The notes: a model not told the origin generated them from the letters alone. A stretch of DNA of 64,000 nt from an uncultured Methanosarcinales archaeon (GCA_964392465.1 CAYMPC010000002.1:14993-78992); one strand, 5' to 3'. Shown: positions 3,744 to 34,700, numbered from the stretch's first letter. Program-made: numbers and translations.

Positions 3744-3786
3744 TTTTTTTAATCTTTACCTATCTTATTGTGGACAAAATAGAGAT

Positions 3787-3857
3787 AGCCCCGCCAGGAT
3801 TCGAACCTGGGTCCCCTCCTCCAAAGGGAGAGATGATTGGCCGCTACACTACGGGGC
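3787..3857 (-). tRNA. tRNA-Gln (anticodon UUG)
   Basis: Minus-strand reading is GCCCCGTAGTGTAGCGGCCAATCATCTCTCCCTTTGGAGGAGGGGACCCAGGTTCGAATCCTGGCGGGGCT. It has a 7-bp acceptor stem, the archaeal GTGTAG..GGCCAATCAT D-arm, anticodon loop CUUUGGA (UUG at 34-36) and a GGTTCGAATCC T-loop. No encoded CCA. Confidence 0.75.
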
Positions 3858-3903
3858 TATATATAAAAATAAAAAGAAAAAAGCTTATCTTAAAAAGTTT
3901 ACC

Positions 3904-6432: not shown

Positions 6433-6729
6433 TTTTTTTGACCCCCACCGTTGTCCTTGTGTGTTTTTTATTTATTATAGAATATATTTTTTAAAATATA
6501 TATTTTGATATATATTTTAATATAGCCAAACATTTAAATATCAGTTTGGAATATACTCTATTCTAGAAAAAGCCAATTATTTTGTTTAAAGCCAAAGTTT
6601 CTCGTCTAAAAAGCCAAACGAGTTAGGTGTAGGATTAAAAAGCCCTAATAACCCCACAGCTTTTTTATTATTTAAATTCCTATTTAAATCTTATTGTATT
6701 ATAAAATATATTTTAGAGAATATAGATAT

Positions 6730-7540: not shown

Positions 7541-8086
7541 GTGCATGAATCACAACTAGGTATGGAGATAACAGAGCTCCTTCAGAGCTTTTTTGATACA
7601 AAGATGCTAAGTATCATTAAACTGTTTCTAAAAGAAGATGGCAAGCAATATTATCTAAGGGAGATTTCAAAGTTAACTAAAGTAAGTCCTGCTTCAACAT
7701 ATAGGATTCTGAAAAAACTTGTTGATCTTCAGGTTATTACCTTAACTGAAATCAAGACTGCAAAGTTATATAGCCTTAATACTGGAAAGACAGTTGAGTT
7801 ATTGAGATCCTTCCTTGAAATAGATGTTATTCAATCTTTTGTTGAAAAAGCATCTGCAGTAGAAGGGGTTGATGAACTTTATTTATATGGTAAAAAAGAA
7901 AAAAGCAAGGCAACAATCTTTATTCTTGGACCAAATATTGAAAAAAACCAGATCAAACAAATAATAAATGATTTTAAGGAAAGGCATAATTTTAGCATTT
8001 TAGATAATTATTTCACAAAAGAGCAATATGATCAGATACAAGGGTTATTTGCAGAAACTAAAAAACTCTTATATAAAAAAGCCTGA
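7541..8086 (+). CDS. winged-helix DNA-binding protein (putative transcriptional regulator)
   Basis: YYLREISKLTKVSPASTYRILKKLVDLQVITL wHTH; paralogous to the 58363 protein. Confidence 0.5.
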   Translation: MHESQLGMEITELLQSFFDTKMLSIIKLFLKEDGKQYYLREISKLTKVSPASTYRILKKLVDLQVITLTEIKTAKLYSLNTGKTVELLRSFLEIDVIQSFVEKASAVEGVDELYLYGKKEKSKATIFILGPNIEKNQIKQIINDFKERHNFSILDNYFTKEQYDQIQGLFAETKKLLYKKA

Positions 8087-8292
8087 TTTTTAATTATTAA
8101 ATCTCTTGTTTTTTATAGTATATATTAAAAATATTCTAATCTAATTAAACTTCAGAATTTTTTTACTTTATTCTTATAAATAATTAGCAGAGGAACTTTC
8201 CTCTGCGATATACGGGACTAGCCATAATCCCGCAATGATAAAGTAAGCTATGATATTTCTAAATAATAATTATAATAAGATAAAAAGAGAAA

Positions 8293-8468
8293 GGCTCCCT
8301 TTTCTTTTTCTTTGTGGGGAGGGGTTTTCAAGAAATAAGGGTTTTAAGGGAGCCTTGAGTATGATTTTGTTATTTTTTCTTCCTTAAGAATCCTCAGTTC
8401 CTTAAGGGGGTTTTAGGCTCCCTTTCTTTTTTGTGGGGTGGGGTTTGTAGAATTCATGAAAGGGAGCC
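8293..8468. repeat. two tandem imperfect copies of a structured element (GGCTCCC ... GGGAGCC stems enclosing G-rich, T-rich loops)
   Basis: Unit A 8293-8354 and unit B 8416-8468 share GGCTCCCTTTCTTTT..GTGGGG(A/T)GGGGTTT..GGGAGCC. In the intergenic gap between convergent genes. Confidence 0.5.
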
Positions 8469-8507
8469 CAGTTATCATGAATTTTGTGAATTTATGATTT
8501 TGAATTT

Positions 8508-8915
8508 TTACTTTTTATAATCTAAAGGAGGCTGTCTCAGTTCTTGGAGCCACATCAATCCTATTTTCATCATATTTTTGTTGAACTTTTCTGATAATCT
8601 GTATGTTTTTTTATAAAGATCGTAATCAATGATGCCCATGGATTTCATGGGCGTCAAGATCCTATCATAAAATTGTCTCTTGTTATAAGAGATTTTTACC
8701 TTCTTGCCTCTGTATTCCGGCTCTTCTAGTTCGGTTATTAGCTCTCCATCATGCAACTTAGTAGCAAATAGAGACATTTCAGTTTTACCGATTTCGCCGT
8801 TGTTCTCCTTCATATGTCTTATCAGGAGCTTTGCAACAATCACCTGTTGCTTTGTTGCAAAGATAATCTCGTATATGTCTTCGGGTAAATTAAATTGGTC
8901 AAACAATAACACCAT
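8508..8915 (-). CDS. hypothetical protein
   Basis: 135-aa ORF with codon usage typical of the window; no recognisable motif. Confidence 0.4.
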   Translation of the reverse strand: MVLLFDQFNLPEDIYEIIFATKQQVIVAKLLIRHMKENNGEIGKTEMSLFATKLHDGELITELEEPEYRGKKVKISYNKRQFYDRILTPMKSMGIIDYDLYKKTYRLSEKFNKNMMKIGLMWLQELRQPPLDYKK

Positions 8916-8983
8916 TTATAATATAAAATACAAACTAGTATATAAATGTTACGTTTTTTTAAACTAGTATAGAAAAAGGTATA

Positions 8984-10870
8984 TTAATTCTTTGAAGTAA
9001 AAAACTCCTTAATCAACCTCTTATAATCTGTGCTTACAACCATTTCCCAGTCTTCAGGGAAGCATCTCTTGTAGTTATTCCATACGTATCTCTCGTCTAA
9101 AAATATAATAACGCCTCTGTCTGTCTCTGATCGTATGCATCTGCCTGCATTCTGGAGTGTTTTGTTAAAAGCAGGGAATAAATAGCCGTAATCCCATCCT
9201 TTTTTGTATTTTTTGTCAAAGTAGTCTATCAATGATTTTGTCTCTAAATCAGGTGAGTTTAAAGGTAATCCTACAACAATGACACCTTTAAGATAATCTC
9301 CAGGCAAATCTATCCCTTCTCCAAAACTACCTGAGGCAACAGCAAGTAAAACAGCACCAGTTTCTTTATAATTCTTGAAATTTTCAAGAAATTCCTGTTT
9401 TTCAGCTTTATTCATGCTATTTCTCTCTGAAAAGACAGTCTTGTTTGTTTTTGTTTCAAAAAATCTTGAAATTTGATCTCTTAAAAAGTAGCTTGGAAAA
9501 AAAGCAGCTGAATTTCCAGGAATCTCATTTACAATTTCAGCTAATACCTCTGCTATTTTTTTATATTGCTCTTGGTTTCTTGCTTCATATTTTGTTGTTG
9601 TTTTTGGAATAATAAGATTAAGCCTATTATTTTTTGGGAAAGGATCTTTGAAAACAACTTCCTGGCTTCTTTCAATCCCTAAAAGCTCTTTATACATTGC
9701 AGTAGGAAGCAATGTTCCAGACATCAATATTGTAGAATGTGTTTTATTAATAATATCTTTACAGACAACACTTGGGTCAAGGCATCTATATGACAAAATA
9801 GTATAAGGCTCTTTTAACCCTTCTTTCATAGATAATATTCTTACAAAACCTTCTTCTTTTCCCTGCCACATTTTTAGAAATCTGGCTATTGAGCCTACAT
9901 AAGATTGTTTCTGAAGCTCTCTTACAGATTCTCCTATATAATTAAGATCTTCTATCAGCTGTTCATAATCATGTTTTTCAGATAAAGGCATTTCAAAGTC
10001 TTCTCTTTTGATTATTTTTTCTCCATTAACTTTCAAGTCTTCTGTTAAATCATTTAATATGTGCATTACATCCATTAAAGACTCTATAGTTGATTCATAC
10101 CCTAGTCTTTTTGCTTCTTTGATTGCTCTCCTTATTACTGTGCTTGAAAGAAATTCTGATGCTAATTCTTTTAACCTAGATGGAAGATTATGAGCCTCAT
10201 CAACAATTACAACTAATTTTTCAGGCTCTTTGTTTATTTTTTGCAGGAAATTATCTCCAATATCAGGATGAAACAAATAATAATAATCACTAATTATCAC
10301 CTTTGAATTCTTTGCAATTCCCAATGACATTTCATAAGGGCACATTTTATCTCTCTGTGAAAGATTAATTACCTCTTCTGTTGTTAAAGGATATTTTTCC
10401 ATATCTTTTAATAAGGCAGAAGCAGCCATCGTAAATTTAGCTTGTGTCTTTCTAGTATTATTATAGAATTCGCATTTCTTTTCTTCTCTCATCTTTCTGC
10501 AATAAGTTATAAAATCAGAACTATACATAGTTTCTATTCCTGGGATAAGGCACATCCATTTTTTTCCTATTATTGAAGTGCAAGTGAAATCATTGCCATA
10601 AAGACCTTTTATCTCCTTTAATGTGTCAATAGCAATCTTATGTTGAGTATGTCTTGATGTTAGAAAAAGAACTGTCAAATCTTTTTCAATAGCCTTTGCC
10701 AAAGCAGGGCCTAAGGTTGCAACTGTTTTACCAAGTCCAGTTGGAGCATGGATAATCATATTTTTCTTATTTTCAATAGCAGCCTCAACCAAAAGAAGCA
10801 TTTTATTTTGCTCCTCTCTAACTTTAAGGAAAGGGAACAATAATTTTTTTTTGTGGTCTTCAGAAATCAT
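8984..10870 (-). CDS. XPD/Rad3-family 5'-3' DNA helicase with Fe-S domain
   Basis: APTGLGKT Walker A; DEAHN DEAH box; four cysteines (C..C..C..C) in the inserted Fe-S domain; 628 aa. Confidence 0.85.
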   Translation of the reverse strand: MISEDHKKKLLFPFLKVREEQNKMLLLVEAAIENKKNMIIHAPTGLGKTVATLGPALAKAIEKDLTVLFLTSRHTQHKIAIDTLKEIKGLYGNDFTCTSIIGKKWMCLIPGIETMYSSDFITYCRKMREEKKCEFYNNTRKTQAKFTMAASALLKDMEKYPLTTEEVINLSQRDKMCPYEMSLGIAKNSKVIISDYYYLFHPDIGDNFLQKINKEPEKLVVIVDEAHNLPSRLKELASEFLSSTVIRRAIKEAKRLGYESTIESLMDVMHILNDLTEDLKVNGEKIIKREDFEMPLSEKHDYEQLIEDLNYIGESVRELQKQSYVGSIARFLKMWQGKEEGFVRILSMKEGLKEPYTILSYRCLDPSVVCKDIINKTHSTILMSGTLLPTAMYKELLGIERSQEVVFKDPFPKNNRLNLIIPKTTTKYEARNQEQYKKIAEVLAEIVNEIPGNSAAFFPSYFLRDQISRFFETKTNKTVFSERNSMNKAEKQEFLENFKNYKETGAVLLAVASGSFGEGIDLPGDYLKGVIVVGLPLNSPDLETKSLIDYFDKKYKKGWDYGYLFPAFNKTLQNAGRCIRSETDRGVIIFLDERYVWNNYKRCFPEDWEMVVSTDYKRLIKEFFTSKN

Positions 10871-11749: not shown

Positions 11750-12865
11750 TTATTTTCTCTTTAACTCAACAACAGCCTCTACATGAGGTGTCTGCGGGAA
11801 TAGATCAAAAACAGCCACACTTTTAATATCAAATTCTTTGAATTTCTGCAGGTCTTTTCCTAATTGTTTTGGATTGCAGGATATATATATTATTACTTCA
11901 GGCTTGAGCTCTTTTAATCTTATTATTGCTTTCTGCTCCATTCCAGATCTTGGTGGGTCTGTTATAACATAAAGAGGTTGTTTTAATTGCGCTTTGTATA
12001 CTTGTTTAGCATCTAAGACAAAGGCTTTTGTATTTTTTATCTGATTCAGCTCAATGTTTTTATTAGCAGCATCAATAGAGCCTTTGAAACTTTCAATTAT
12101 TGTTGCCTCTTTGAATAAATCAGAATTTACAATTCCAAAAGTGCCGACACCTCCATATACATCAAGAAGATAAGCGTCTTTTGTATTGTATTGCTTCAAT
12201 AGATTATTAGTATAGGCAATCATCTTCTCTGCCATCTCAGAATTGTTCTGGAAAAAACCCTGGATAGAATAATTGAATTTTTTGCCTAAAAAAGTCTCGC
12301 TCAGGAAATCATTGCCCTTTACAATAAAATAATTAATAGAAGTGCTAACTTCACTTCCAGGAAGGACATAAGTTACAGCAACATTATTTGCTGTTGTGAT
12401 TTTTGAAAATTCTTTTATCTTATCAATAGCTTCTGTAAGCCTTGTTGATTTCTCGCTCAAGACAAAAGATATAGAAGAATCATTCTGAGGAGCTCTTATG
12501 ACAACTTGCTTGAATGTTCCTGTCTGTTTTTTAAGATCATAAGCATCAATTTCTGCAACCTCAACAAAAAACTGCCTGATCTCTTTCATAATCAAATTAA
12601 TCCTTTCATTAGCAATAGCACATTGCTCAATATCTATTATGCTATACCACTTATCTTTTTCTCTTAACCCAATCCCTTTTGGATGAAAAATAAAATCCAT
12701 CCTGTTCCTGTAATAATATTCTTTTCCTGAAAAAACTTTGATATCCTCATATTCTGTATTGTGCTTCACGACATTTTTTTTATTATCCAGCTGCATAGAA
12801 TAATCAATATGCTGGGCAGAGCACCCTCCGCATTTCCTGAAATAAGGGCATAATGGAGTTGACAT
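11750..12865 (-). CDS. RNA (uracil-C5)-methyltransferase, TrmA/RumA family (archaeal tRNA m5U54-type)
   Basis: N-terminal CPYFRKCGGC Fe-S cysteines, SAM-methyltransferase core, DPPRSGM motif. Confidence 0.85.
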   Translation of the reverse strand: MSTPLCPYFRKCGGCSAQHIDYSMQLDNKKNVVKHNTEYEDIKVFSGKEYYYRNRMDFIFHPKGIGLREKDKWYSIIDIEQCAIANERINLIMKEIRQFFVEVAEIDAYDLKKQTGTFKQVVIRAPQNDSSISFVLSEKSTRLTEAIDKIKEFSKITTANNVAVTYVLPGSEVSTSINYFIVKGNDFLSETFLGKKFNYSIQGFFQNNSEMAEKMIAYTNNLLKQYNTKDAYLLDVYGGVGTFGIVNSDLFKEATIIESFKGSIDAANKNIELNQIKNTKAFVLDAKQVYKAQLKQPLYVITDPPRSGMEQKAIIRLKELKPEVIIYISCNPKQLGKDLQKFKEFDIKSVAVFDLFPQTPHVEAVVELKRK

Positions 12866-13102
12866 AGATGGTTGGATATGGGCTTTCTTTTTATTTATAT
12901 CGTGTGTTTTTTACTCTTTCGAGTATACAAACCTTTATAAAATCATACACATATCATACATCTAGTATACAATTAACCTACACCGAAACATTTATATACT
13001 ACATCTATCCAGTATTTATCATACAAATATCATATATGATACAAAAACAGCCTTAGTATACAAAAATATACTAATGATTAATGGACCGGACCATAAGAGC
13101 AG

Positions 13103-13258
13103 ATGAAGCAAAAAGTAGCAGTAGTGAATGTTAGATTGCCTGAGGAGATTATTTCTTGGATAGATTCTCTTGTAGATAATAAAATATATAATTCTAGATC
13201 AGAGGCAGTAAGAGAATTCTCAAGAGACTATGTGTTAAAACAAAGAGGAGGGAGATAG
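13103..13258 (+). CDS. ribbon-helix-helix (CopG/Arc-like) DNA-binding protein
   Basis: Below the ORF-track cutoff. Translation MKQKVAVVNVRLPEEIISWIDSLVDNKIYNSRSEAVREFSRDYVLKQRGGR shows a beta-strand followed by two helices. Confidence 0.55.
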   Translation: MKQKVAVVNVRLPEEIISWIDSLVDNKIYNSRSEAVREFSRDYVLKQRGGR

Positions 13259-13521
13259 TGCCAGATCAAATTGTTTCTGTAAGGATGCCCGTAACTTTGA
13301 TTAATGAGTTAAAAGAGCTGGCAGAAAAAAACCATTTCCTTGATGTCAGCGAGGAAGTCCGTTCTTTACTGAGAGAAAAATGGCAGGAGCATAAAGATCC
13401 TTATGCAATGAAACTTCTGGCTATAAAGGAAAGTGTTGCAAAAACAGCTGTTCCAGAGAAAATAAAGATGCTAAAAGATGATTTGAAAAGATTATTGGAG
13501 GAGTTAAATGGTCTTCAATAA
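13258..13521 (+). CDS. ribbon-helix-helix-like protein with C-terminal coiled coil
   Basis: GTG start overlapping the previous stop. VSVRMPVTLINELKELAEKNHFLDVSEEVRSLLRE; overlaps the next gene by 14 nt. Confidence 0.5.
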   Translation: MPDQIVSVRMPVTLINELKELAEKNHFLDVSEEVRSLLREKWQEHKDPYAMKLLAIKESVAKTAVPEKIKMLKDDLKRLLEELNGLQ

Positions 13522-16500
13522 TCATAAAAGAATAATATCTTGGACTATTTTGATACTTATAATTGTATTTGGATTAGTCTTTTCTAGAATACATATTATT
13601 GTAAATGCAGAGGAAAATCTTACCTCATTAAATCTATCTGAAAACACAACTCAAAATACAACAGATGAAATAAGTCAAAATATAACCGCAAACATTACAA
13701 CAAACACATCAGAAGAAATTTCAATAATAAATTCCTCTTTAATAATATTAGATAGCAGCAATTACAAAGAAATTTATGAAAACGAATCTGTAAATTTTTA
13801 TGCAAATTATACATATGAAAACGGAACAATAGAAGGAAGATGTATAATAGATATTCTCCAAACACAAGAAGAGATGATTTACAATTCAACAAGTAAATTA
13901 TATAATTATACAAAAATTTTCTTACAATCAGGCAATTATTCCTATGAAATAAATTGTTCAAAAGAGGGCTTCACAAATCAAAGTGAAACATCAACAATAC
14001 AGATTTTACCTATTTTAATTAATTCAACAAATAATACTATTATAGATAATGATAATGATGGTTATTCTAATATTACAGATTGCAATGACAATAATCCTAA
14101 TATTAATCCTGGAAAAAAAGAAATACTTTATAATGGGCTAGATGATGATTGCAACCCTTCAACATTAGATTACCTTATTTTCAACGTTAATACAGATAAA
14201 CAAGTATACTCAACAACAGAGACAGTAAGAATAAGTATAGAGGCGCAAAATAATTCAGATACATATATTACTATAAACACACCTACAAACGTATCCTATA
14301 TCTATATCTTCTCAAATGGAAGCTATCCTGTAACTCAGGAATTTTCATTAACAGGATTAGCTGGGACATATGGTGTTGAAGCAATAAATTACTATGAGAA
14401 TTATACTAATCAAAAAAATATACCCTTTACAGTACAAAGTTCAATGAATGTAGAAATTGAGACAAATGTTTCTGAAGTATATGAAAAAGAAAGAATCCAT
14501 TTCAAAGCAGTTGTAACAGGTGCAACAGGAAACGTGAACCTTATTTGGAAAATGGATGATAATAAAGAGATTTATCAAAGTGAATTTGACTATAATTATA
14601 GTAATGCCAGAGAATATAATGTTGTTCTATTAGCCACTGATCAGGGAGGCAACCAAGTAATTAAAACAAAAAAGATACTAGTAAATAAACAATATTTCCT
14701 AAAAGTAAAAGTAGTTGATAACTCTACAAATGAGATTCTACCGAATGCAACAGTAAAATTAGATTCAATATCACAAAAAGTAAATTCAACAGGAGAAGTA
14801 GAATACAAAATAACAAATAATACATATGAACTTAGAGTTTCATCAGATAATTATTATTCTTATCAGGAAGACATAAAAATAAATAACTCTCTAATATTTA
14901 CAGTTAAGTTAGTAAAAAGAGAAGAGGAAGTCTCACCTATTATTAGTATAATCTCTCCTCAAAATAATACAAAATCTTCAAAGCCAGAATTCAAATTCAC
15001 GTTTGAGGATGATGGATATGCAGATTGCAGTCTGTATATATCTAAAGAAGGAGATTGGTGGGAAGAGATTGATGCAAATGAAGAATTATCTCCTAATATA
15101 GAATACTATTTCAACCCAAGTTTAGAGAATATATCTTATTATTGGAAAATCAAATGTATAGATGAAGATGGCAATGTCGAATACAGCCCACAATATTTTG
15201 TTGATATCTCAGCTAACGAACAAAATGTAATTATGCAGGATAACCAGGAAGAAGTAGAAACAACATATAACGTTATTCAAAACGTCTATAATGTAATTCC
15301 TGACTTCGAAACATATTCTCCAGATGAAAAAAAGATAGTTGATTATCTAAAAATGGATGCATTGATTAAAGATGCAAAAAGAAAACTGGAGATGGCTAAC
15401 AGGGATTTATTTAATCTAAAAAATCAGCCAGATACAGATTCAGTCATAAAAACAAGAGATGAAATTTATGCCAGAATTGAAACTATAAAAGATGAAACTC
15501 CTCTATCTGTAAGCTCAAAAAAGAAGGTTGATTTTGTCAAATATATTGAAGATTCGGAAGTTGAATCCCTCTTTAATGAATATCTTACTCTAAATAACAT
15601 TCAATTAAGCAATAGTGAAAAAAAGAAGCTTGTTGAGCAAAATAAAATCCTGCAGAAAAAAGCAACAATAGCCACAACAGCATACAATGTTGAAATAACT
15701 TATATTTCAGGAAGAAAAGAAGAAATTACTTTAATTGTAAGAAAAACAGACATTGATTCTGCTCAGGGAATCATGTATGCTGAATTTATACCAAAAGATA
15801 TTGTTGATACTGTTAATAAAATTGTCTTTGTAACTCAGCCAGATAAAATCTTAAAAGAAGATCCAGTATTTGAAGTTGAATTAACCAAGTTTACAGAAAT
15901 AGTTTATTATATTAAAAATTCTGTTTCATTGGATATTATTCCTAAAATAAAGCCAATATTAATAAAAACACAACTTGAAACTTCTTCAAATAGCATAACA
16001 GGATTTGCGTTATTTGACACACTAGGATTTTCAGAATCTAATAAAAAAATATTCATTATAGAACTATTTGTTGTTTTCATTTTATTAGGGATTTATCTTT
16101 TCTATTACTTTAAATCTTCTAATTATGAAATAATTGCTCCAGTTATTACAAAAATAACTAAAGAAGAAAGCAAACAAGCTATACAAAGTAAAATAACTTT
16201 TTCAAAAATAGGAACAACTGCAGAAGAGAGTCATAAAATACAATATATAAATAACGTAATTCAAAAAGCAGAGAATAACTTAAAACACAACAAGATAGAA
16301 GCAGCAGCAGTCAAATATTATGAATTGAAATTTTTATATGACTTACTTAGTGAGAATGATAAACTCTTTTTGTTTGATAATCTAATGTCTCTATCTGATA
16401 AAATTAATTATGCAAATATCAACAAATTGCTTGATGAGGCAATAATCTTCCTCGCAATAGGAAATTATGACTCTTCAATAGACTTATACGAAGAAATACA

Positions 16501-25206: not shown

Positions 25207-25797
25207 GTGACTGGAAATAAATTAGAAAAAGAGATTATAGGTATTTTTAATAGGGATATTTCTTCATTTTTAAGCATAAACCAAATATCAAAAAGATTAC
25301 ATAAGGCTTATCCCTATATAAATTCCAAGGTAAATAGCCTTATAAATGAAGGAGTTCTGACTAAATTCAATATAGGAAGAAGCTATCAATGCTCAATTAA
25401 TTTAAATAGCGAGAGAGCAGTAGCACTATTAACACTAAATGAAGTAGAAAAAAAAGAAAAATTATTTCTGAAAATAAAAAACATTAATAAGGCACTTGAA
25501 GATATAAAAAATATTAAAAATGAGTTTAAGATATATACTATTTTATTATACAATAACTCTCTTATTTTTGTTCTTGATTATCTTCATGACCAAGAAGCAA
25601 TAAAAAATTTGTTTCATTCAATTAAGCAATTTGATTTGATTTTTTTAGATAAATCTTCTTTCAAAAAATATCTTCTAGCTAATAAAAGTAAACTGCATGA
25701 ACATGCAATCCTTTACTCCTATGAAAAATATTTTGAGATAATGGGCGAAGTCAAAGATATGTCGCTTCTCAGCAATATAAATAATTACCTAAAATGA
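25207..25797 (+). CDS. winged-helix-like protein co-transcribed with the giant surface gene
   Basis: GTG start; LSINQISKRLHKAYPYINSKVNSLINEGVL wHTH-like; 4-nt overlap with 25794. Confidence 0.5.
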   Translation: MTGNKLEKEIIGIFNRDISSFLSINQISKRLHKAYPYINSKVNSLINEGVLTKFNIGRSYQCSINLNSERAVALLTLNEVEKKEKLFLKIKNINKALEDIKNIKNEFKIYTILLYNNSLIFVLDYLHDQEAIKNLFHSIKQFDLIFLDKSSFKKYLLANKSKLHEHAILYSYEKYFEIMGEVKDMSLLSNINNYLK

Positions 25798-28700
25798 ATC
25801 AAACAATCAAAAAAAGAATAACAGGAATCTTTTCGATACTTTTATTACTCATTATATTTGGAGTTTCTCTTTTCATTATTTATGCTTCAGATACAGAGTC
25901 TGCTTATATTTCTTTAAATAAAAAACAACTCTTTTTAGAAGAAATTTTAGAAGTTTCCTTAACTTTTCCAACCTTAGATAATATAACTGTCGATTTATTT
26001 ACGCCGACTTCAGTTTATAGGTATCCTTATCCTTCTTCTACTTTTAGATATAAAGTTAATGATATAGGGACATATAGAATAAACGTTTATAACAACAGAG
26101 TCCTTGTCGCTTCTGAAACTTTTTATGTTATAGAAGACCCAATTATAGATAATGATACAGGGGGATTTGATGAATTAGGGAAAGAAGATATAATCGACTT
26201 TTTTAGTTTATCTAAACCTAGTTATAACTTGGGAGAAGAAGTAATAATTATCTTTAATGAAAATCATTTTAGTAAATCTTTCAAACTTTCAATAAATTCA
26301 GAAAATCAAAACCTTAATTATATGAATGATTTAACTAACCCTACTAAATTTATTCCAAGGAAAAGAGGAGAATATGAAGTATTGGTTTATGATGAGGGAG
26401 CATTATTAGAAAATGAAACTTTTTATGTTTTGGATATAACAAAACCAAATAACCAAACTAGTCAAGAGGAACCTTTAGTATTAAATAATACAAATAATAT
26501 TTCAGCTAATAATGATAAAGAAATAAAAAATATATCAGCAGAAACCAATCAGTTAAATGAGTATACTGATTCAACTGTTTTTAATCTATTTTCTCCAGAA
26601 GGAATAAATTTTCAGATTAAAAACAGCAAAGGCTATTACTTATATACAAACCTTATATTAAACAGCGTAGAAACTGGAATTAAAAATCTTAAGCTGACAA
26701 CCCTCTCTTATCTTAATCTTTCAAAAGGAAAGTATAATGTTGAAGTATATCCTGAGCTTGCGGGAATTAAAACAATAACATTTAAAGAATTAAATTATCA
26801 AGGAGAATTTGAGCTTGGTCTTGAAGAATTGTCAGGCGTAAAAGTAGGAAAACAAGTTCCAAAAAAAGCTTATGCAATAGATCCCTCCAAACTTGAATTC
26901 AGCACAGGAAGTCTAGAAGTCGAGGCAAAAGGAGATATCTTATTCAAATGCAAAGAATGGAATTTTACAGAGCAAAAGTGCTATGGTGAATGGGAACTAA
27001 TAAGAACAATAACGCCAGGAGAGATATATGCATTAGAAATCAATAGTGCAGATCCAGCATATGCTGAAGTGGGGTTAGCATCTATAAATACAGAAAAATC
27101 ATTATATTATCCAGGAGAAACAGCAAAACTAACAATTGTTGCTCTTGATAATGAAGGGTATCTTGTTTCAAATGCATATGTTGCATTGGAAATAAAAGAT
27201 CCTTTGGGTAATTCAACATTCTTGACAACTTTAGAAGGAAATATTACTGAAATGGAAAGAGGAATCTATGAAGCATATTATAACATAAATGAGATAGAGG
27301 GAAACTATACTCTTTTTGTTTCTGTTATTGGAAATAATGTTAATAACACAATGTATTCTTATTTTTCTGTTCTTGATTATTATGAATTTGACATTTTAAG
27401 AAATACTCCAGTAACAACAGACCCATGGCAATCGCCTTTTATAACCCAAATAAATATTCTTGATTTGATAGATAACAAATCTTACTATAACTTTACAGAA
27501 ATATTGCCTTCTTCTTTTACCATAACAAATGGAAGTTATTCTGAAATTATTCAGCAAGAAAATTATACTTTGCTCAAATGGTATAACTTGAGCAATAGAT
27601 CTTATATTGAATATACTGCGCAGCCACCTCTAATTACACCTGAACTTTATACATTAAGGTCTTTTATTGAGTACAATGGAAGTGTATTTACTGAAGCGAG
27701 ACCGTGGTATCTAGCAGTTGATCCTATTATCTATTCACAAGTATGTGCAGGGCAGGATAATGCAAATGGCCAAGATACCTATTCAGCTACAGGATGTGAT
27801 GGATCCTATCCAGGCGCATGTGGAGCAGGAGGGGATTTATTATCATGTGATGATGATCAATCTGAAATACATACAGCTAGCAACAATGATAGATGGGCAG
27901 GCGTTAGAATCAATTCATATAATTCTTCTATGAATGACTGCCTAAGCATAACAAAGGTTGAGCTTTGTTATGAATGGTGGAGAACAGTTGGCTATGATGT
28001 TGCAAGAATTGCAGTTGATAGGGATGATTGGGCAAGCCCGACAACAATATCTTCTACAGTTCCAGGGACAACAGCAAATCCAGGAGTAACTTGTATTGAA
28101 ATCACTTCTTCTGAAGCTTGGACCTGCTCAAACTTTGACGGTACAGGAACAGCAGCACAGGCAGTTGCGCAACTCCAAAGGGATGGTACATCTACTTCTC
28201 CTCCGACAGCACGAACAGTATATATAGACTTATTATACTTTAATCTTACTTATCAGGGAGACAATAGCCCAAATGTAACCTTAAATACACCTGCAGCATA
28301 TTATTACAACAATACAAACAATCCTGCAAATATTACTTTTAATTGTTCTATCAAAGATGACATCAGATCACAAAATATCTCTCTTTATATTACAAATTCT
28401 GCTAATACAAGTTTTTCATATAATCAATCATGTGATATAACAACACAAAATGGAAGCTGCGTATGGTCCTTGCTTCTTTCAAATGGAGAATATAGATGGA
28501 ATTGTTTAGGTTATGATAACAGATCACAATCTGACTGGGGCGATGCAAACAGGAGTATAGTTGTGGCAGCAGCAGGTGTAGATGATTTTCCGACAGTCTC
28601 TCTTACTTCTCCTGTTGATTATTTTAATTCAACAAGCACAACAGTACAGCTAACTTGCCTTGCTGAGGACACAACAGATTTGTATAACATAAGTTTATAT

Positions 28701-31700
28701 ACAAATATAACCGGAAGTTTTGATTTAACTGATTATATAACTCTTGATGGAGGGCCAAATACATCTTACTTATCAGTATTTACTCTCTCTAGTATTCCCA
28801 ATGGAACAACTTTTATTTGGAATTGTTTGGTATATGATAATAGTACATTAGGACAATTTGCATGGGCTTCAGCTAATAGAACAGTAAGTATAAAAGAAAA
28901 TCCAATTCCTTTAGTATATCTTTTCTCTCCAGAAGATGAAACAACACAAACAGAGACAACAATTAATTTCAATTGCTCTGCAACAGATGATGAAGATATA
29001 AGTAGTCTAGCATTATATAGCAATAGAACAGGAAGCTTTGGGCTTGAGCAGGTAGTTACATTTACAGGAAATTCTGATACAAATGTTAATTATATTTTTA
29101 CGCAGAGTGGATTTTCAGATACTAAAGGATATGTGTGGAATTGTAAAGCAATAGATAATGAATCTAATGAAGTCTTTTATTATACTAATTATAGTTTTAA
29201 TGTTGTTCTTGGGGCGCCAAATGTAACCTTAAATACACCTGCAGACGAATCATACGATTTAGATGGAAATGTTGCATTAGATTGTTCAGCAGTTGATGAT
29301 CAGGATATTGTATCTATCAGCTTGTATCATGATTTATCAGGAACAATGGCATTAAATCAGACAGTTTATTTTCCAGGAACTTCAGATACAAGTGCAACAG
29401 TATTATTTAATTTGACAGGCCTTTCTTATGGAACTAGATTTAAATGGACATGCAGTGCAGAAGACAACAGCTCTTTAGTTTCTTATGCAGCAGAAAACAG
29501 ATCTCTTAAAATAGTGAACCTATATAATCTTTTTGCTGAAAAAGGAGAAGGAACATGGACTTCTCCTTCAAATGCAGCGGGAAAGCCTGATGAAGTTACT
29601 GCAAATGAGTTGCTTAATACAGAATATATTCTTAGAGTATACAATTTTTCAGGGGTTCCAACACAAGGGACTTTGCTTGAAACATATTTCAGCCTTTCAT
29701 GGTATACTGCTTCCACAGGTGGAAATGATCTTTTAAGATTATCCTATTCTACTACAAATTCAACTTATTATAACTTAACAGGAATAATATATGACAAAGA
29801 TACTGCCAAATATGCAAACAAGGTTTCTTCTTTAACAAACCAATCTTATCAAATAACAGGTACATTGACAACAGCAGATTTATCTTCTTTATATTTAAGA
29901 GTAGAAGGTGATCAAGTAACAAGTCCAGATTATAATACAGCCTATATTGATTCCATCTTTTTGTCTATCATGTTTGATTATTTGCCTTCACCTTATGCAA
30001 TAACAAAAACACCTTCAGCAGTTTATCAAAATACTTATGTTGATTTTTATTCAAACTGGACAGATGACTTTTATTTAGGATGTTATATTTTTAGTATTAA
30101 TCAGACAGGCGTATGGCAGAATTCTTCATGCATTCCATTCTTACCAGGAGCATGGGATGAAAGAGCAAATTATTCAATGCAGATTACAGCATTGCCAGGA
30201 ACAAATGTGCAATGGAGATTCTATGCAAATGATTCAAGAAGCCAGTGGAACAGCACAACAATACAGTCTTTTGTTGTGGTGGATCCAAATGATATTATAA
30301 AACCAACAATATCAAATGAGCAAGTGCAGCCCTTAACAAATTCATCAGGAAGCATATTTAATATTAGCGCTATTATCACAGATAATTATCAAGTTGATAG
30401 GGCATATGTAGAGTTAACAAACCCAAACGGACAAACAACAAATTATTCAATGTCTAGTAATGGAGATTTATATTATTACTATTATCAAGGATGGATTGGC
30501 GGAAATTATTCTTTCAGGATAATTGCTTTTGATAGTGTTAATAATAGCAATTATTCAAGTACTTATCCTATATTTAATGTTACCCCGGTTATTACGACAA
30601 ACTATATTTATTATGAAAGAGGAGATATTGTTCCAATAATAGGGAAAGGTTATTCTTCATTAAATAATGTAACTTTGAATATATTTAGAGCAAATGGAAC
30701 ATTAATGTCAGGATATCCTATAAATATTTCAAGCAATTTAACAGGTGGTTTTTTAACTTCTTGGCTAATTCCAAGTTCTTTAGCTGAAAAACTTGATAAT
30801 TATACAATTGAAGGTAATGATACTTACAGAAACTATTTAAAAAATTCAACAGAGATTGTTGTTGTAGTAAAATCAGATGATAGCAATAAATATGATAATA
30901 ACTATCCAACTGGAACAAGTGTATTAACACAATTAAATCAATCCGATGATATAACAACAACAATAGTCTCAAGAGGAACTGTAGCATATATAGATTTAAT
31001 TTATCAGGATTTGATTTTATATGGATATACATTAGATGATTTAATATTATATGTTGAACATGAGGACTATGATACAACAAGCGATCCTCTTGTTGTTCAG
31101 TATTATGATGGAACAACATACCAAACAGCGACTTGTGGAAATATTCCCTTTAGTTCAACTAATCTCCTAGGAGCATGTAACCTTACTCCTGATTTGGCAG
31201 CCATACCTGATAAAAATGATATTAGGATAAGATTGACAGATAATAATGCAGGAGTTTCTGGGAGTGATTTTTCTAAAATAGATATAGCTTACTTAGATAT
31301 TGAATTCAGTATTTCAAATACACTTTCTGTTGATATACTTGAACCTACAAATGAATTAACCTTAGTTGATTATACAGATTCAGTTTACAATAAAGCGTAT
31401 GGAGGGAGTACAGCAGATATAGTAACTAACACTCAGATGATGGGAACAGAATCATCTGATTATACTAAGTTGGAATCAAGTGATAATACAAGATGGCAGT
31501 CAACTGCAACAACAAGCGGCCATCATGTTTACCAAAGCTTTTACATGTATACAAACATCCCTGAATCAGACATTACAAGCATAGATGTGACATGGGAAGG
31601 ATATATGACAAAAAACGGAGTAAATGCAGAAGACATAAGGATTTTTGCTTGGGATTATACAGCAGGCGAATATGTTGATTTAAATGGAGAGGTAGCAATA

Positions 31701-34700
31701 ACAGGATCTACAGTTGATCAGACACTTGCTTTTACTTTGCCTGGAATAGTGGATGATTATATAAACAGCACAGGATATTTAAATATTTTAGTACAGAGCG
31801 CAACAGACCTTCAGGGAGCGCCTCAAGTTAGACTTGACTCATTTACAGACTATATTAAACTAGATATATATTCAATTAAAACTATTTCTGGCTATCAGGA
31901 TATAAACATTAGCGCAGTAGATGGCGATGGTGTTCAAAGCTGTACTATTAATTTCATAAATTCAAGCAACTTTAAGTATAATGATATTTATACAAATAAA
32001 CTTTCTGATTTCTTTTTTTACAATTTAACAGATACTTCTGATTATTCAGATGGCATATACAACCTTACTGCAAATTGTACAGATGGCACAGAAATAAAAT
32101 ATGACTCTGTTTTAGTTAGAATCTACAATGTTGCTCCCTTAGTTGAATTGATGTATCCTTATGAGGGATTGAATTTTACAATAAACAATATTAATTTTAC
32201 ATGGAATGCAAGCCAGGAAACAGGAAATCCAACATGTAACCTTTACATAGATAATAAATTAAATGTTTCAGGGATAGTATCAACAAATAAACAAAACACA
32301 ACCCAAATAGTATATAACCTACCAGATGGCAATCATAACTGGTCAGTTTCTTGTACAAATCTTGCAGGAGTCGTAGGATATTCTGAAATGAGGAATTTTA
32401 CAGTAGATACTTTAGCGCCAGTTATAACTTTAAATTATCCTATAGAGAGCCAGAATATAAGCACACCTAATATAACTTTTAACTATACTCCTATTGATAC
32501 AAACATTTTGAACTGTTCTATTTATATTAACGGAATCTACAATAATTCAAACACTTCTGTAATACCAAACAGACAAACCTCATTTTACGTTACTAATCTG
32601 TTAGCAGGCAAATACAACTGGACAGTATATTGTACAGATAGATATAGTCAGACAGGGCAAAGTACTGTAAATAATTTTACAATTGATTTAGATAATCCAA
32701 GAATTATATTGACACTTCCAATACCAGGCCAATTATTTTTAGGAGGCTTAGTGCAATTTAATTATACTGCCTATGATGATATAGACCTTTATTTATCATG
32801 TAATATTATGGTAAACAATTTTAATGAGTTTACAGGATTATCATCTCCAAATGCTACACCTGTTGTTCAAAGTAAAGAAATAAATTCAGGATTAAAATAT
32901 TGGAATGTTACATGTACAGATGATTCAGGAAGACAGAACACAAGTGAAACATGGAACTTTACTGTTAGCGGACCTCCTACAGTTACGCCTATCTATCCAG
33001 CTAATATGACTTCTTTGAATGAAGAAAACATAACTTTTATCTATTTTGCAGATGACACAGATGGAATAAAAAATTGTTCTTTATACTTAAATAATCAATG
33101 GAATCAGACAAATGTTACTATCTACACAGGAGAATACAATAATTTTACCATAAATACTATGGCTGAGACTTATTATAACTGGTCTATGCAATGTTATGAT
33201 AATTTGTCTGTAAGTACAACCTCTGGATTATATAAATTCACTTTAGATAGAACCCCCCCAATAGTCTATATGTATGCTCCTTATGAAGGAAGCTTTTATG
33301 AAGATGGAGATTTAACTTTTAATTTTAGTGTAATAGATAACTTAGACTCTTCTTTGACATGTACAATATTTATAGATGATATAGCAAGAACAGCATCAAA
33401 CACAGACTTTGCAGCACAAAATGGAACGATACAAACAAGAATAGAAATAGATATTCCTGGAGGAGATCATTATTGGTATGCAGCCTGTACAGATGATTCA
33501 GGCCTTAGCTATTATGCAGATGCTGTTAATTTTCAAATAGGAGGATTACCAACAGTAACACCTATCTCACCAGGAGACAACACATATCACATTGGAAATG
33601 TTAGTTTTGTTTATTTTGCTTATGATAGTGATAATATACAAGAATGTTCTCTTTACATAAATGGTGAATATAATAGGACAAATACAACAATCTTCAACAA
33701 TGACTATAACAATTTCAGTTTATATAATCTAGAAGAACAATATTTAAACTGGTCTGTAAATTGCACAGACACCTTAGGATTATCAACAATGTCTTTAGTA
33801 TATTGGCTTACTATAGATAATACGCCTCCTATAGTAACTCTTGTCTCTCCAAATGGAACAAGTTCAACAAGCACAACACAGATTTTCAATTTTTCAATAA
33901 TTGAAAACACAATGAGCAGCTTGACATGTGATATTTTTGTTAATGGTACAAATGTAGATCCAGGATTTACTGCAACAAATGGATCAAACACAAGAACAGT
34001 TCCAGGATTAAACTATGGCACAAGTTTCTGGAATGTTACATGTACAGATGGAGCATTGCTTTTAGGAGTAAGTCAAACATATAATTTTACAATTACAGAA
34101 ACACCAATTATAACTCTTTTAAATCCACCAGATGATTCGGTTGATATAGACGGAAATGTTATTTTCAGATTTCAAGTAGATAATAATAATATCTTAAATT
34201 GTAGTCTTTATCTCAATGGTCAACTAAATAATTCTATTTATCCTCCTGATATTATTCCTTATGGTGAATCTATTATACAAGTAAATGGTTTGCAAGAGCA
34301 ACTTCTTAACTGGACAGTTGGATGCATAAACGATGATTATATAGAAGCAAATGCGACAAACGGTCCCTGGAGATTGCATGTCGACTGGAATTCACCTAAT
34401 GTCAGTTTAAATAATCCTGTTAATTCTGCAAATATTAGTCTTAGCACAATAACATTTAATTTTACTGCTTTTGATAATGTAGATGATGTTTTATTATGTA
34501 ATTTAACAATAAATGGAACTATAAACCAGACAAACATATCCTCTCAGAATGGGCAACCAACAACAACAACAGTAACAGGATTTGGTCCTGGAATATATTT
34601 CTGGAATGTAACGTGTACAGATGGTTATTTTGCAAATACGTCAGAAACATATTACTTTAATGTTAGTGCTATTCCTACAATTGAACTTGTTTCTCCTGAA

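What the first reader, a model, noticed from the sequence alone, without database searches (positions are those of the whole stretch)
8100..8507. Structured 420-bp intergenic region with duplicated stem-loop elements, possibly small RNAs
Two elements lie between the convergent genes ending at 8086 (+) and 8508 (-). The first (8190-8237) is a compound hairpin: GAGGAACTTTCCTC, then TGCG-ATATA-CGGGA-CTAGCCATAA-TCCCG-CAA. The second comprises two tandem copies (8293-8354 and 8416-8468) with a 7-bp GGCTCCC/GGGAGCC stem. Each stem encloses a T-rich then G-rich loop (TTTCTTTT..GTGGGGAGGGG), and each is followed by a TGATT-containing tail. The GGGG.GGGG tracts could also form G-quadruplex-like structures. 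The elements are too ordered for plain terminators and are unusually GC-rich for this genome.
Basis: seen in the sequence. Interest (0 to 1): 0.5.

Follow-up and report, generated by a model that had tools for sequence, protein, structure and literature searches.

The report
Conserved archaeal 3'-UTR stem-loop RNA
The hairpins are real and belong to a previously undescribed, widely conserved RNA stem-loop motif that sits directly after a small DNA/RNA-binding-type gene found only in tiny DPANN archaea; what the motif does is still unknown.

Summary
The described hairpins exist at the stated coordinates. They are not chance, not plain terminators and not G-quadruplexes. The window comes from a Woesearchaeota-like (DPANN) archaeon.

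The functional strand is the minus strand. The elements lie directly 3' of, and co-oriented with, a very conserved 135-aa winged-helix gene (8508-8915, -) that has no Pfam family.

In 52 of 85 related loci the same gene is followed by the same motif:
- an 8-13 bp G+C-rich stem, 94% paired, with 7 of 9 core pairs showing compensatory changes;
- a 21-46 nt G-poor loop carrying UUCU...A(A)CC(A)CCCCCAC.

This window has two tandem copies (A 8414-8470, B 8291-8356). Between them is a covarying hairpin. After them come a U-tract and two further conserved hairpins (8212-8233, 8187-8206).

A covariance model found the motif only at this position in 405 kb. Rfam has no match.

The motif occurs only where the gene's promoter spacing implies a leaderless mRNA. 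It never occurs (0 of 22) where the gene has a GGGGGUG Shine-Dalgarno leader.

Best reading: a new cis-acting 3'-UTR stem-loop module whose C-rich, anti-SD-like loop is read by an unidentified partner. The mechanism is inferred, not shown.

The parts
8934..8985 (-). Highly conserved promoter of the winged-helix gene. It holds a BRE-like AACGTAACA (8947-8955), a TATA box TTTATATA (8939-8946), two copies of the palindromic box TATACTAGT (8934-8942 and 8963-8971) and AATATAC (8979-8985). The TATA box ends 23 nt before the ATG, which implies a leaderless mRNA.
   Evidence: The same arrangement is seen in nearly all 85 related loci.
8508..8915 (-). 135-aa winged-helix protein gene. It is restricted to DPANN archaea, very conserved, and matches no Pfam, NCBIfam or PDB sequence. 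The RNA module always follows this gene.
8471..8479 (-). Semi-conserved 5' flank CAUGAUAAC just before hairpin A.
8414..8470 (-). Hairpin A. It has a 13-bp stem (UGGGCUCCCUUUC / GAAAGGGAGCCUA) and a 31-nt loop, AUGAAUUCUACAAACCCCACCCCACAAAAAA, with a single G (in AUG).
   Evidence: Model R1 scores 55.1 bits, E = 4e-15. Fold energy -21.5 kcal/mol, z = -4.9. It is homologous to the single hairpin of distant relatives.
8382..8407 (-). Hairpin H2 (CCUUAAGGA...UUCUUAAGG), between the two C-loop hairpins.
   Evidence: It folds in all 9 near relatives with 8-12 bp. The outer CUUAAG is conserved, the inner pairs differ in a compensatory way, and G-U pairs occur on this strand. RNAalifold on the MAFFT alignment failed because of misalignment.
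8291..8356 (-). Hairpin B. It has an 11-bp stem (AAGGCUCCCUU / AAGGGAGCCUU), a 44-nt loop with the core CCCCUCCCCAC, and an optional inner helix UUUCUUG / CAAAGAAA.
   Evidence: Model R1 scores 64.9 bits, E = 2e-18. Fold energy -20.2 kcal/mol, z = -3.7.
8277..8292 (-). U-tract UUUCUCUUUUUAUCUU immediately after hairpin B. It is a likely archaeal termination signal.
   Evidence: A U-tract follows the last hairpin in 22 of 48 loci, against 10% of random windows.
8243..8254 (-). Conserved linker box AUCAUAGCUUAC (consensus AUCAUGCUCAY).
   Evidence: It recurs after the hairpin(s) in near and distant relatives.
8212..8233 (-). Hairpin C (GCGGGAUUAU GGCU AGUCCCGU), with the conserved loop sequence UGGCUAG.
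   Evidence: It is conserved in L003, L006 and L007, where the stem changes GGGA/UCCC to GGAG/CUCU to GGAA/UUCC. It is more stable on this strand than on the opposite strand in all 4 sequences, clearly so in 3.
8176..8206 (-). Hairpin D (GCAGAGGA AAGU UCCUCUGC) followed by UAAUUAUUUAU. It looks like a terminal hairpin with a terminator-like tail.
   Evidence: The terminator scan lists it on the minus strand. The stem is invariant in L003, L006 and L007, the loop varies, and U-runs follow.

Best explanation
The 420-bp spacer is the structured 3' untranslated region of the mRNA for a DPANN-specific winged-helix protein (8508-8915, minus strand).

Its core is a conserved stem-loop motif that has not been described before and is present here in two tandem copies (A and B). 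Each copy has a stable G+C-rich stem that holds open a 21-46 nt, G-poor, C/A/U-rich loop. The loop carries the conserved sequence UUCU...A(A)CC(N)CCCCAC.

What is shown: the strand, the gene linkage, stem covariation, loop conservation and enrichment of a U-tract after the hairpin.

What is inferred: the gene is transcribed as a leaderless mRNA. Transcription runs through hairpin A, H2 and hairpin B, and ends at the U-tract after B or after hairpin D. The stems then form a 3'-terminal structure that fixes and protects the mRNA 3' end. The single-stranded, anti-Shine-Dalgarno-like loops act as a docking surface for a trans-acting reader. Candidates are a KH-type 3'-end or termination factor such as aCPSF1/FttA, the winged-helix protein itself, or the ribosome.
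For: Gene linkage and strand.
- In relatives 73-93% identical in the protein, the motif always lies on the gene's strand. The median gap to the stop codon is about 13 nt, and in three loci the stem overlaps the stop codon.
- Model R1 gives 35-71 bit hits in 52 loci, all at that position. It finds nothing comparable in the other roughly 400 kb searched, including the remaining 63 kb of the window.
- The genes further downstream differ between loci, so the motif travels with this gene.

Structure.
- The 9-bp core stem is 94.4% paired, and 7 of 9 pairs show double changes.
- None of 500 shuffles reaches any of the five measures, and slid registers collapse to 40-69% paired.
- When the loop motif is searched without reference to pairing, it is found in 54 downstream regions, and 52 of these have the stem.

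Strand evidence.
- In the core stem there are 19 G-U cells against 5 A-C cells, and 43 G-U pairs in the full stems.
- Hits on the opposite strand score 22 bits or less.
- The fold z-score is -6.98 on the minus strand and -2.65 on the plus strand.

Loop.
- Loop composition is 36% C, 35% A, 22% U and 7% G.
- UUCU and the CC..CCC core are nearly invariant.

3'-end role.
- A U-tract follows the last hairpin in 22 of 48 loci, against 10% of random windows.
- U-tracts together with aCPSF1 KH domains are the known archaeal terminator signal (PMC8716108, PMC7515710).

Link to translation mode.
- The motif is found in 49 of 52 cases where the TATA-to-ATG spacing is 21-27 nt (leaderless).
- It is found in 0 of 22 loci with 33-39 nt spacing and a GGGGG(U)G Shine-Dalgarno sequence. 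These loci fall in at least 3 clades of a neighbour-joining tree.
- Archaeal 3'-UTRs are known to take part in translational control (PMC2636863).
Against: - There are no transcript data. Co-transcription, the 3' ends and the leaderless 5' end are all inferred from sequence.
- The loci were collected through the protein. The motif could therefore also exist elsewhere in these genomes without being seen.
- Archaeal termination does not need hairpins, and about half of the loci have no U-tract directly after the hairpin. In those loci further modules or a co-directional gene follow.
- Some leaderless-type loci lack the motif: L046, L054, L057, L076, L077, L080 and L085. More distant homologues (43-57% identity) also lack it. 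The motif is therefore dispensable.
- The protein tree is short and weakly resolved, so the exclusivity with the Shine-Dalgarno leader may rest on few independent events.
Confidence: 0.45

Rival explanations
1. Trans-acting small RNA(s). Hairpins A and B would be released from the 3' UTR by termination or processing, or be transcribed on their own. Their exposed C-rich loops, which resemble the 16S anti-Shine-Dalgarno CACCUCC, would base-pair with G-rich ribosome-binding sites of other mRNAs and repress or modulate their translation. This is how C-rich-loop sRNAs such as RsaE/RoxS work in Firmicutes.
For: - The loops are single-stranded and G-poor, and contain CACCCC / CCUCC.
- In the window, G-rich Shine-Dalgarno regions are complementary to the loops. 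ftsZ has acGGUGGGGgu 7 nt before its ATG, 7 nt complementary to loop A. The gene at 48624 has GUGGGGAG directly before its ATG, 8 nt complementary to loop B.
- The tandem duplication of the C-loop hairpin in this lineage resembles multi-seed sRNAs.
- The Shine-Dalgarno sequence used by hairpin-less relatives of the gene (GGGGGUG) is the exact complement of the loop core.
Against: - No conserved promoter lies between the stop codon and the hairpin, and the stem often abuts or overlaps the stop codon.
- Strict linkage to one gene is unusual for a global regulator.
- Any G-rich Shine-Dalgarno sequence is complementary to any anti-SD-like sequence, so the ftsZ and 48624 matches are expected and not specific.
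- No target enrichment test on a whole genome was possible.
- No accumulation data exist.
Confidence: 0.22
2. The module is part of a larger, independent non-coding RNA gene of unknown class, about 200-330 nt long (A-H2-B-linker-C-D here; hairpin plus AUCAUGCUCA box plus GGGAAAAAGAGGUGA loop plus terminal hairpin in other lineages). It would merely be syntenic with the winged-helix gene, for example as the RNA partner of that protein in a ribonucleoprotein.
For: - Several further conserved elements follow the C-loop hairpin: the linker box, hairpins C and D, and an SD-like AAAGAGGUG motif. The SD-like motif lies within -60 to +100 nt of the hairpin in 27 of 48 loci, against about 7% expected.
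Against: - The downstream modules differ between lineages, and only the C-loop hairpin is shared.
- No Rfam family matches, even at permissive thresholds.
- No promoter is conserved.
- The palindromic operators in the gene's own promoter point to DNA binding by the protein.
Confidence: 0.12
3. Ordinary 3'-end or terminator and stability hairpins with no specific recognition. Loop similarity would only reflect recent common ancestry.
For: Strong stems at a gene's end, with an enriched U-tract after them. The weak PyrG_leader hit is driven by terminator-like features.
Against: - The loop sequence is conserved while the stem sequence turns over: GGCUCCC, GGCCCCC, GGGCCUGGCG, GCUCCUUAUUGU. This is the opposite of what neutral descent predicts.
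- Loops of 21-46 nt are costly for a pure stability hairpin.
- Archaeal terminators do not require hairpins (PMC8716108).
- The motif is specific to one gene in 405 kb.
Confidence: 0.1
4. DNA-level element: inverted repeats bound by a dimeric protein (for example the winged-helix protein), or origin-recognition-box-like or G-quadruplex-forming DNA on the G-rich plus strand.
For: - Inverted repeats with a G-string superficially recall archaeal ORB elements.
- The GC-skew sign change lies at about 12-14 kb in the window.
- There are four GGGG tracts on the plus strand.
Against: - Arm sequences change freely while complementarity is kept, and G-U pairs are favoured over A-C (19 against 5). That is RNA-level selection.
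- The spacer between the arms is asymmetric and conserved.
- The repeats are direct, not inverted, relative to each other.
- Most relatives have only one G-run, so no quadruplex can form.
- The element follows the gene and not any replication gene.
Confidence: 0.04
5. Small protein-coding genes hidden in the spacer, for example the 45-aa ORF at 8250-8387 (+), the 27-aa and 21-aa ORFs on the minus strand, or MASPVYRRGKFLC starting in the loop of hairpin C.
For: ORFs of 13-45 codons exist. The AUGG in the hairpin C loop is conserved in 3 of 4 relatives.
Against: - One-nucleotide indels occur inside the conserved C-run (CCACCCCCAC against CCACCCCCCAC) and elsewhere in the loops.
- Reading frames are not preserved between relatives.
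- No conserved start codon or Shine-Dalgarno sequence is present.
- Conservation follows base pairing, not codons.
Confidence: 0.03

Closest known systems
C-rich-loop regulatory sRNAs of Firmicutes (RsaE/RoxS type; from my own knowledge)
   Same: Stable hairpins that expose unpaired C-rich motifs resembling the anti-Shine-Dalgarno sequence. Several C-rich modules sit in one RNA. There is potential to pair with G-rich ribosome-binding sites; ftsZ and the gene at 48624 in this window are complementary over 7-8 nt.
   Different: This is an archaeon. There is no sequence or covariance-model similarity. The loops are much larger (21-46 nt). The element is fixed to the 3' end of one gene with no promoter of its own, and trans-action has not been shown.
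Metazoan replication-dependent histone mRNA 3' stem-loop (an analogy of logic only; from my own knowledge)
   Same: A conserved stem-loop a short distance after the stop codon of one particular gene class. It marks the mRNA 3' end and is read by a dedicated factor to control processing, stability and translation.
   Different: Unrelated in sequence, size (6-bp stem with a 4-nt loop there) and domain of life. No reader protein is known here.
Archaeal U-tract terminators read by aCPSF1/FttA (PMC8716108, PMC7515710, PMC11616081)
   Same: Located at the gene end. A U-tract follows the last hairpin here (8277-8292) and in 46% of relatives. A pyrimidine-rich single strand is the type of ligand KH domains bind.
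   Different: Known archaeal terminators need only the U-tract. No conserved hairpin or C-rich loop is part of that signal, and half of the loci lack an adjacent U-tract.
PyrG leader (Rfam RF02371), the only Rfam hit
   Same: It shares a GCUCCCUU...AAGGGAGC stem followed by UUUCU.UUUU and preceded by an A-rich stretch, scoring 36 bits.
   Different: The score is far below the gathering threshold (65). A 44-nt insertion stands where the family has 12. No pyrG, nor any gene, lies downstream on that strand. There is no 5' GGGC. The family is from Firmicutes and this is an archaeon.
Haloarchaeal 3'-UTR-dependent translational control (PMC2636863)
   Same: Archaeal mRNAs, many of them leaderless, whose 3' UTR is needed for translational regulation. 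Here the motif occurs only with leaderless-type promoters.
   Different: No defined RNA motif was reported there. The phylum is different, and no functional data exist here.

Membership tests
PyrG leader (RF02371) | Covariance-model score at or above the gathering score (65 bits) | tested here: not met
   36 bits, E = 0.0038, with a 44-nt insertion in the terminator loop. It is not listed at the gathering threshold.
PyrG leader (RF02371) | Lies in the 5' leader of pyrG (CTP synthase) on the same strand | tested here: not met
   Downstream on the minus strand there is only the convergent plus-strand gene 7541-8086. The element is 3' of a winged-helix gene.
Any Rfam 15 family | Match at the gathering score, or a credible E-value | tested here: not met
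   Window: only a tRNA at 3786-3858. Region 8000-8600 at E up to 10: only noise and PyrG. Nine related loci at E up to 0.5: nothing at the motif.
Bacterial-type intrinsic terminator | G+C-rich stem, short loop (about 3-8 nt), then a U-run | tested here: not met
   Stems and a U-tract are present for hairpin B and hairpin D. Loops of A and B are 31 and 44 nt, and their sequence is conserved. Hairpin A has no U-tract.
G-quadruplex | Four G-tracts close together on the relevant strand, conserved among relatives | tested here: not met
   The window has 2 + 2 GGGG tracts about 110 nt apart, on the strand antisense to the RNA. Most relatives have a single run.
Archaeal box C/D sRNA | C box RUGAUGA and D box CUGA at the ends (with C'/D' boxes), forming a K-turn; length about 50-70 nt | tested here: not met
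   Only AUGAUAA (one mismatch) lies 5' of hairpin A. There is no conserved CUGA at the 3' side in relatives. No Rfam snoRNA hit of note.
Archaeal H/ACA sRNA | Hairpin with an internal pseudouridylation pocket, an upper stem with a K-turn or K-loop, and an ACA box 3' of the stem | tested here: not met
   The loops are unstructured and G-poor with no conserved upper stem. No ACA follows the stems.
C-rich-loop SD-targeting sRNA (RsaE/RoxS-like) | Unpaired C-rich motifs in loops | tested here: met
   Loops are 36% C and 7% G and unpaired in minimum-free-energy folds. Cores are CCCCACCCC and CCCCUCCCC.
C-rich-loop SD-targeting sRNA (RsaE/RoxS-like) | Own transcription unit, and demonstrated pairing with target ribosome-binding sites | not testable with these tools
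   No conserved promoter was seen. Complementary Shine-Dalgarno regions exist, but their specificity cannot be assessed without a genome and expression data.
New motif defined here (model R1) | 8-13 bp stem with compensatory changes, enclosing a G-poor loop with UUCU...ACC(N)CCCC, directly 3' of the winged-helix gene | tested here: met
   Window copies score 64.9 and 55.1 bits.
Archaeal origin recognition boxes (ORB) | Inverted ORB pairs flanking an A+T-rich unwinding element, next to orc1/cdc6 | tested here: not met
   The two copies are direct repeats. No orc1/cdc6 lies next to the element in the window or in relatives.

The most novel reading that the evidence does not exclude
The C-loop hairpin is a 3'-UTR translation element that stands in for a Shine-Dalgarno leader. 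On the leaderless winged-helix mRNA it would capture or recycle ribosomes, or a ribosome-associated factor, through its anti-SD-like loop, often together with a nearby SD-like AAAGAGGUG motif. It would be an archaeal counterpart of viral 3' cap-independent translation enhancers. This would explain why the motif and a GGGGGUG leader (the exact complement of the loop core) are mutually exclusive across several clades.
Probability: 0.1. Interest if true: 0.85.

Novelty: new variant of a known kind. Interest (0 to 1): 0.55.

Why it matters
DPANN archaea have very small genomes, and almost nothing is known about how they control gene expression after transcription.

This finding gives a covariation-supported RNA motif that is absent from Rfam. 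It is conserved across dozens of uncultured lineages. It is tied to a lineage-specific, very conserved winged-helix gene whose promoter and operator are themselves nearly invariant.

It provides a concrete, testable handle on three questions: how 3' ends form in archaea, how leaderless mRNAs are regulated, and what this unknown protein does. If the exclusivity with the Shine-Dalgarno leader is functional, it would point to 5'-3' communication in archaeal translation.

Tried and rejected
- **Rfam.** Searched at gathering and permissive thresholds on the window and on nine related loci. Nothing turned up except a sub-threshold PyrG_leader hit, rejected on score, context and taxon.
- **G-quadruplex.** Rejected: wrong strand, and not conserved.
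- **Box C/D and H/ACA sRNAs.** The defining boxes are absent.
- **Small ORFs in the spacer.** Rejected because of 1-nt indels in the conserved core and because frames are not conserved.
- **Divergent SRP RNA or RNase P RNA.** I considered this from memory of their conserved motifs. Nothing supports it and there is no covariance-model signal.
- **Pseudoknot or cis pairing of the loop with downstream G-rich sequence.**
  - There is no general signal: mean longest complement 4.0 nt observed against 3.1 nt in shuffles, with 2 of 38 loci at p <= 0.05.
  - My automatic choice of the loop core was imperfect in that test.
  - One clade (L055, L058, L073, L083) does have an 8-nt complement, GGGUGGUU.
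- **Independent promoter.** No conserved TATA/BRE lies between the stop codon and the hairpin, or before hairpin C.
- **Origin or ORB reading.** Rejected.
- **Searches that led nowhere.**
  - Helicase-based scan of genome contigs: a single 51% hit.
  - Exact look-ups of the two flanking window proteins: not on record.
  - Loop-motif scan of viral contigs: 0 hits.
  - RNAalifold on the MAFFT alignment of H2 failed through misalignment, so I replaced it with per-sequence folds.
  - Cluster look-up of the identical protein P0001 returned no accession or organism name.
  - Pfam and NCBIfam scans of the protein and of more distant homologues were empty. A precomputed 'faint' PF27297 (AF_0843) flag on P0122 was not reproduced.

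Full report
**1. Observation**

- GGCTCCC...GGGAGCC occurs at 8293-8354 and 8416-8468 and nowhere else in 64 kb. The expectation from 100 shuffles is 0.00.
- GTGGGGNGGGGTTT occurs twice, only here.
- The true stems are longer than reported, at 11 and 13 bp.
- The 'first element' is two hairpins, at 8187-8206 and 8212-8233.
- The spacer folds much better than shuffled sequence on the minus strand (z = -6.98) than on the plus strand (z = -2.65).

**2. Organism and context**

The window is about 30% G+C. Its genes include FtsZ, an XPD-type helicase with an HBB domain, a tetrapyrrole-methylase-type protein and a tRNA U5-methyltransferase.

The 135-aa product of 8508-8915 has more than 4,000 close relatives. 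Where they are named, the sources are 'Candidatus Woesearchaeota', 'Nanoarchaeota' or 'archaeon' MAGs. The source is therefore a DPANN archaeon.

The protein:
- It matches no Pfam, NCBIfam or PDB sequence.
- The family is narrow: 77 clusters at 50% identity among 1.84 billion representatives.

**3. Relatives carry the same elements, on the gene's strand**

Contigs that encode close relatives (L002-L005) show the same order of elements directly after the stop codon and on the gene's strand:
- AYGAUAAY;
- hairpin A (GGCUCCC stem, CCCCACCCC loop);
- a CUUAAG hairpin;
- hairpin B (GGCUCCC stem, CCCCUCCCC loop);
- a U-rich stretch;
- further hairpins.

The genes further downstream differ between these contigs.

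A protein-anchored scan of metagenome contigs gave 80 more loci at 73-93% identity. Of the 79 loci with at least 100 nt of sequence downstream of the stop codon, 52 have a stem-loop after the stop codon, at a median distance of about 13 nt. Its features are:
- a stem of 7-17 bp (median 11);
- a loop of 21-46 nt (median 38);
- loop composition of 36% C, 35% A, 22% U and only 7% G;
- the conserved loop sequence UUCU...A(A)CC(A)CCCCCAC.

Hairpin A of the window is the counterpart of this single hairpin. Hairpin B is a second copy found only in the window's own clade: the window and L002-L010.

**4. It is an RNA structure**

In a 55-sequence alignment the 9-bp core stem is 94.4% paired, and 7 of 9 pairs show changes on both sides. 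Examples are U-A to C-G at one position in 20 sequences, and whole-stem replacements such as GGGCCUGGCG/UGCCGGGCCC. None of 500 shuffles reaches any of the five measures, and slid registers fall to 40-69% paired.

Ascertainment check. I picked these sequences with a hairpin filter, which could bias the result. I therefore searched for the loop motif without any pairing requirement. It is present in 54 downstream regions, and 52 of them have the stem.

Evidence for the strand:
- G-U outnumbers A-C by 19 to 5 in the core stem.
- Covariance-model scores are 35-71 bits on the gene strand and 22 bits or less on the other strand.
- Hairpin H2 folds in all nine near relatives, with compensatory inner pairs.
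- Hairpin C keeps its UGGCUAG loop while its stem changes, and it is more stable on the gene strand in all four sequences, clearly so in three.

**5. Specificity**

Model R1 was searched over 405 kb, comprising the whole window and all loci. Its significant hits lie only directly after the winged-helix gene.

No Rfam family matches. The sub-threshold PyrG_leader hit (36 bits against a threshold of 65) reflects a shared GCUCCCUU/AAGGGAGC stem plus U-run. It fails on score, context and taxon. A scan of viral contigs for the loop motif found nothing.

**6. Clues to function**

- (a) **Position.** The motif sits at the 3' end of one mRNA. A U-tract, the archaeal termination signal (PMC8716108, PMC7515710), follows the last hairpin in 22 of 48 loci, against 10% of random windows. 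In the window it is UUUCUCUUUUUAUCUU at 8277-8292.
- (b) **Promoter.** The gene's promoter is nearly invariant. It has BRE/TATA elements and two TATACTAGT palindromes. This suggests autoregulation by a DNA-binding protein.
- (c) **Leaderless spacing.**
  - In hairpin-bearing loci the TATA box ends 21-27 nt before the ATG, so the mRNA is probably leaderless (49 of 52 loci).
  - In 22 loci the spacing is 33-39 nt and a GGGGG(U)G Shine-Dalgarno sequence is present. None of these has the hairpin.
  - These 22 loci fall in at least three clades of a weakly resolved neighbour-joining tree.
  - GGGGGUG is the exact complement of the loop core CACCCCC. The two never occur in the same locus.
- (d) **Anti-SD likeness.** The loops resemble the 16S anti-Shine-Dalgarno sequence (CACCUCC, from general knowledge). 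In the window, the G-rich Shine-Dalgarno regions of ftsZ (GGUGGGG) and of the gene at 48624 (GUGGGGAG) are complementary to loops A and B over 7-8 nt. Any G-rich Shine-Dalgarno sequence would be, however.
- (e) **SD-like motif.** An SD-like AAAGAGGUG motif lies within -60 to +100 nt of the hairpin in 27 of 48 loci, against about 7% expected. In a few of these it is the Shine-Dalgarno sequence of a real downstream gene. The window itself lacks it.
- (f) **No cis partner.** No general cis-complement to the loop exists downstream.

**7. Interpretation**

What is shown: a new, conserved, covariation-supported stem-loop motif. It is duplicated here, lies on the minus strand, and is physically tied to the 3' end of a DPANN-specific winged-helix gene.

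What is inferred (confidence about 0.45): it is a cis-acting 3'-UTR module. It sets and protects the 3' end of a leaderless mRNA and presents a G-poor, anti-SD-like loop to a trans-acting reader. Candidate readers are KH-type aCPSF1/FttA, the winged-helix protein itself or the ribosome. The effect would be on stability, 3'-end formation or translation.

Rivals, with rough confidence:
- a 3'-UTR-derived trans-acting sRNA that targets G-rich Shine-Dalgarno sites (about 0.22);
- a larger independent non-coding RNA or ribonucleoprotein partner (about 0.12);
- unspecific terminator or stability hairpins (about 0.10);
- a DNA-level element or G-quadruplex (about 0.04);
- hidden small ORFs (about 0.03).

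**8. Limits**

- There are no expression data.
- The loci were collected through the protein, so copies elsewhere in the genomes cannot be excluded.
- The protein tree is short.
- The motif is dispensable in some lineages. Several leaderless-type loci lack it, and so do more distant homologues at 43-57% identity.

Noticed in passing
window 8934-8985 (-), and the equivalent position in L002-L085: The promoter of the 135-aa gene is almost invariant across lineages. It reads AATATAC-N-CTATACTAGT-N-AAACGNAACATTTATATACTAGT, that is BRE/TATA plus two palindromic TATACTAGT(A) boxes. This is probably an autoregulatory operator. The TATA box ends about 23 nt before the ATG, which implies a leaderless mRNA.
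   Followed up: partly
L017, L035, L044, L047, L048, L053, L059, L062, L067, L072 (start of the gene match, for example L035:2501): In the clade with a Shine-Dalgarno leader and no hairpin, the codon aligned with the ATG start is ATA, preceded by GGGGGUG 5-8 nt upstream. No in-frame canonical start is evident just upstream. This may be a non-canonical AUA start.
   Followed up: no
For example L052:1420-1450, L074:1575-1600, L026:2500-2525, L065:1295-1315, L055:2995-3020: A second conserved element, GGGAAAAAGAGGUGA (Shine-Dalgarno-like), lies near the C-loop hairpin in 27 of 48 loci (about 7% expected). It is often the loop of a covarying stem (CCUCGC...GUGAGG) and is followed by a G+C-rich hairpin and a U-run. 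In L055, L058, L073 and L083 it is followed by AUGGGUGGUU, whose GGGUGGUU is an 8-nt complement of the hairpin loop AACCACCC.
   Followed up: partly
L026 about 2560-2595; L074 about 1623-1662: Another conserved hairpin has a covarying stem (GGUGAGUCA/UGACUCACC against GAGGUAGGU/ACCUGCCUC) and the conserved loop AAUGGAAGC-GAAA/AAAU-UGCGCUGA. It is flanked by AUCAUC...CAUCACA and could also be read as a short ORF, MEA(K/N)CAD(S/L)PHH.
   Followed up: no
L004:2651-2722 (and a shorter version in L005): A tandem array of an 11-nt unit (AAAATTAAGAT) is inserted between hairpins A and B in one relative. This shows that the spacing between the two hairpins is not constrained.
   Followed up: no
window 6441-6449 (-) and 48615-48623 (+): There are unusually G-rich ribosome-binding regions in an A+T-rich genome: GGUGGGGGU 7 nt before the ftsZ start, and GUGGGGAGA directly before the ATG at 48624. 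Both are complementary to the C-rich loops over 7-8 nt.
   Followed up: partly
window about 12000-14000: Cumulative GC skew reaches its minimum here, and the coding strand switches from mostly minus to mostly plus at a divergent gene pair (12865 / 13508). This may lie near a replication origin or may be only a strand-bias effect.
   Followed up: no
window 25794-38738 (+) and 40956-47600 (+): Two giant ORFs of 4314 and 2214 codons.
   Followed up: no
window 3786-3858 (-): A tRNA gene (Rfam tRNA, 54.8 bits). It is the only Rfam match at the gathering threshold in the window.
   Followed up: no
L031 and L034, about 40-90 nt after the stop codon: A decayed copy of the motif. The 5' arm TTTGGCCCC and the loop core AGACCACCCCC are kept, but the 3' arm is lost (model R1 scores 14.6 bits). 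This looks like a lineage that is losing the element.
   Followed up: partly
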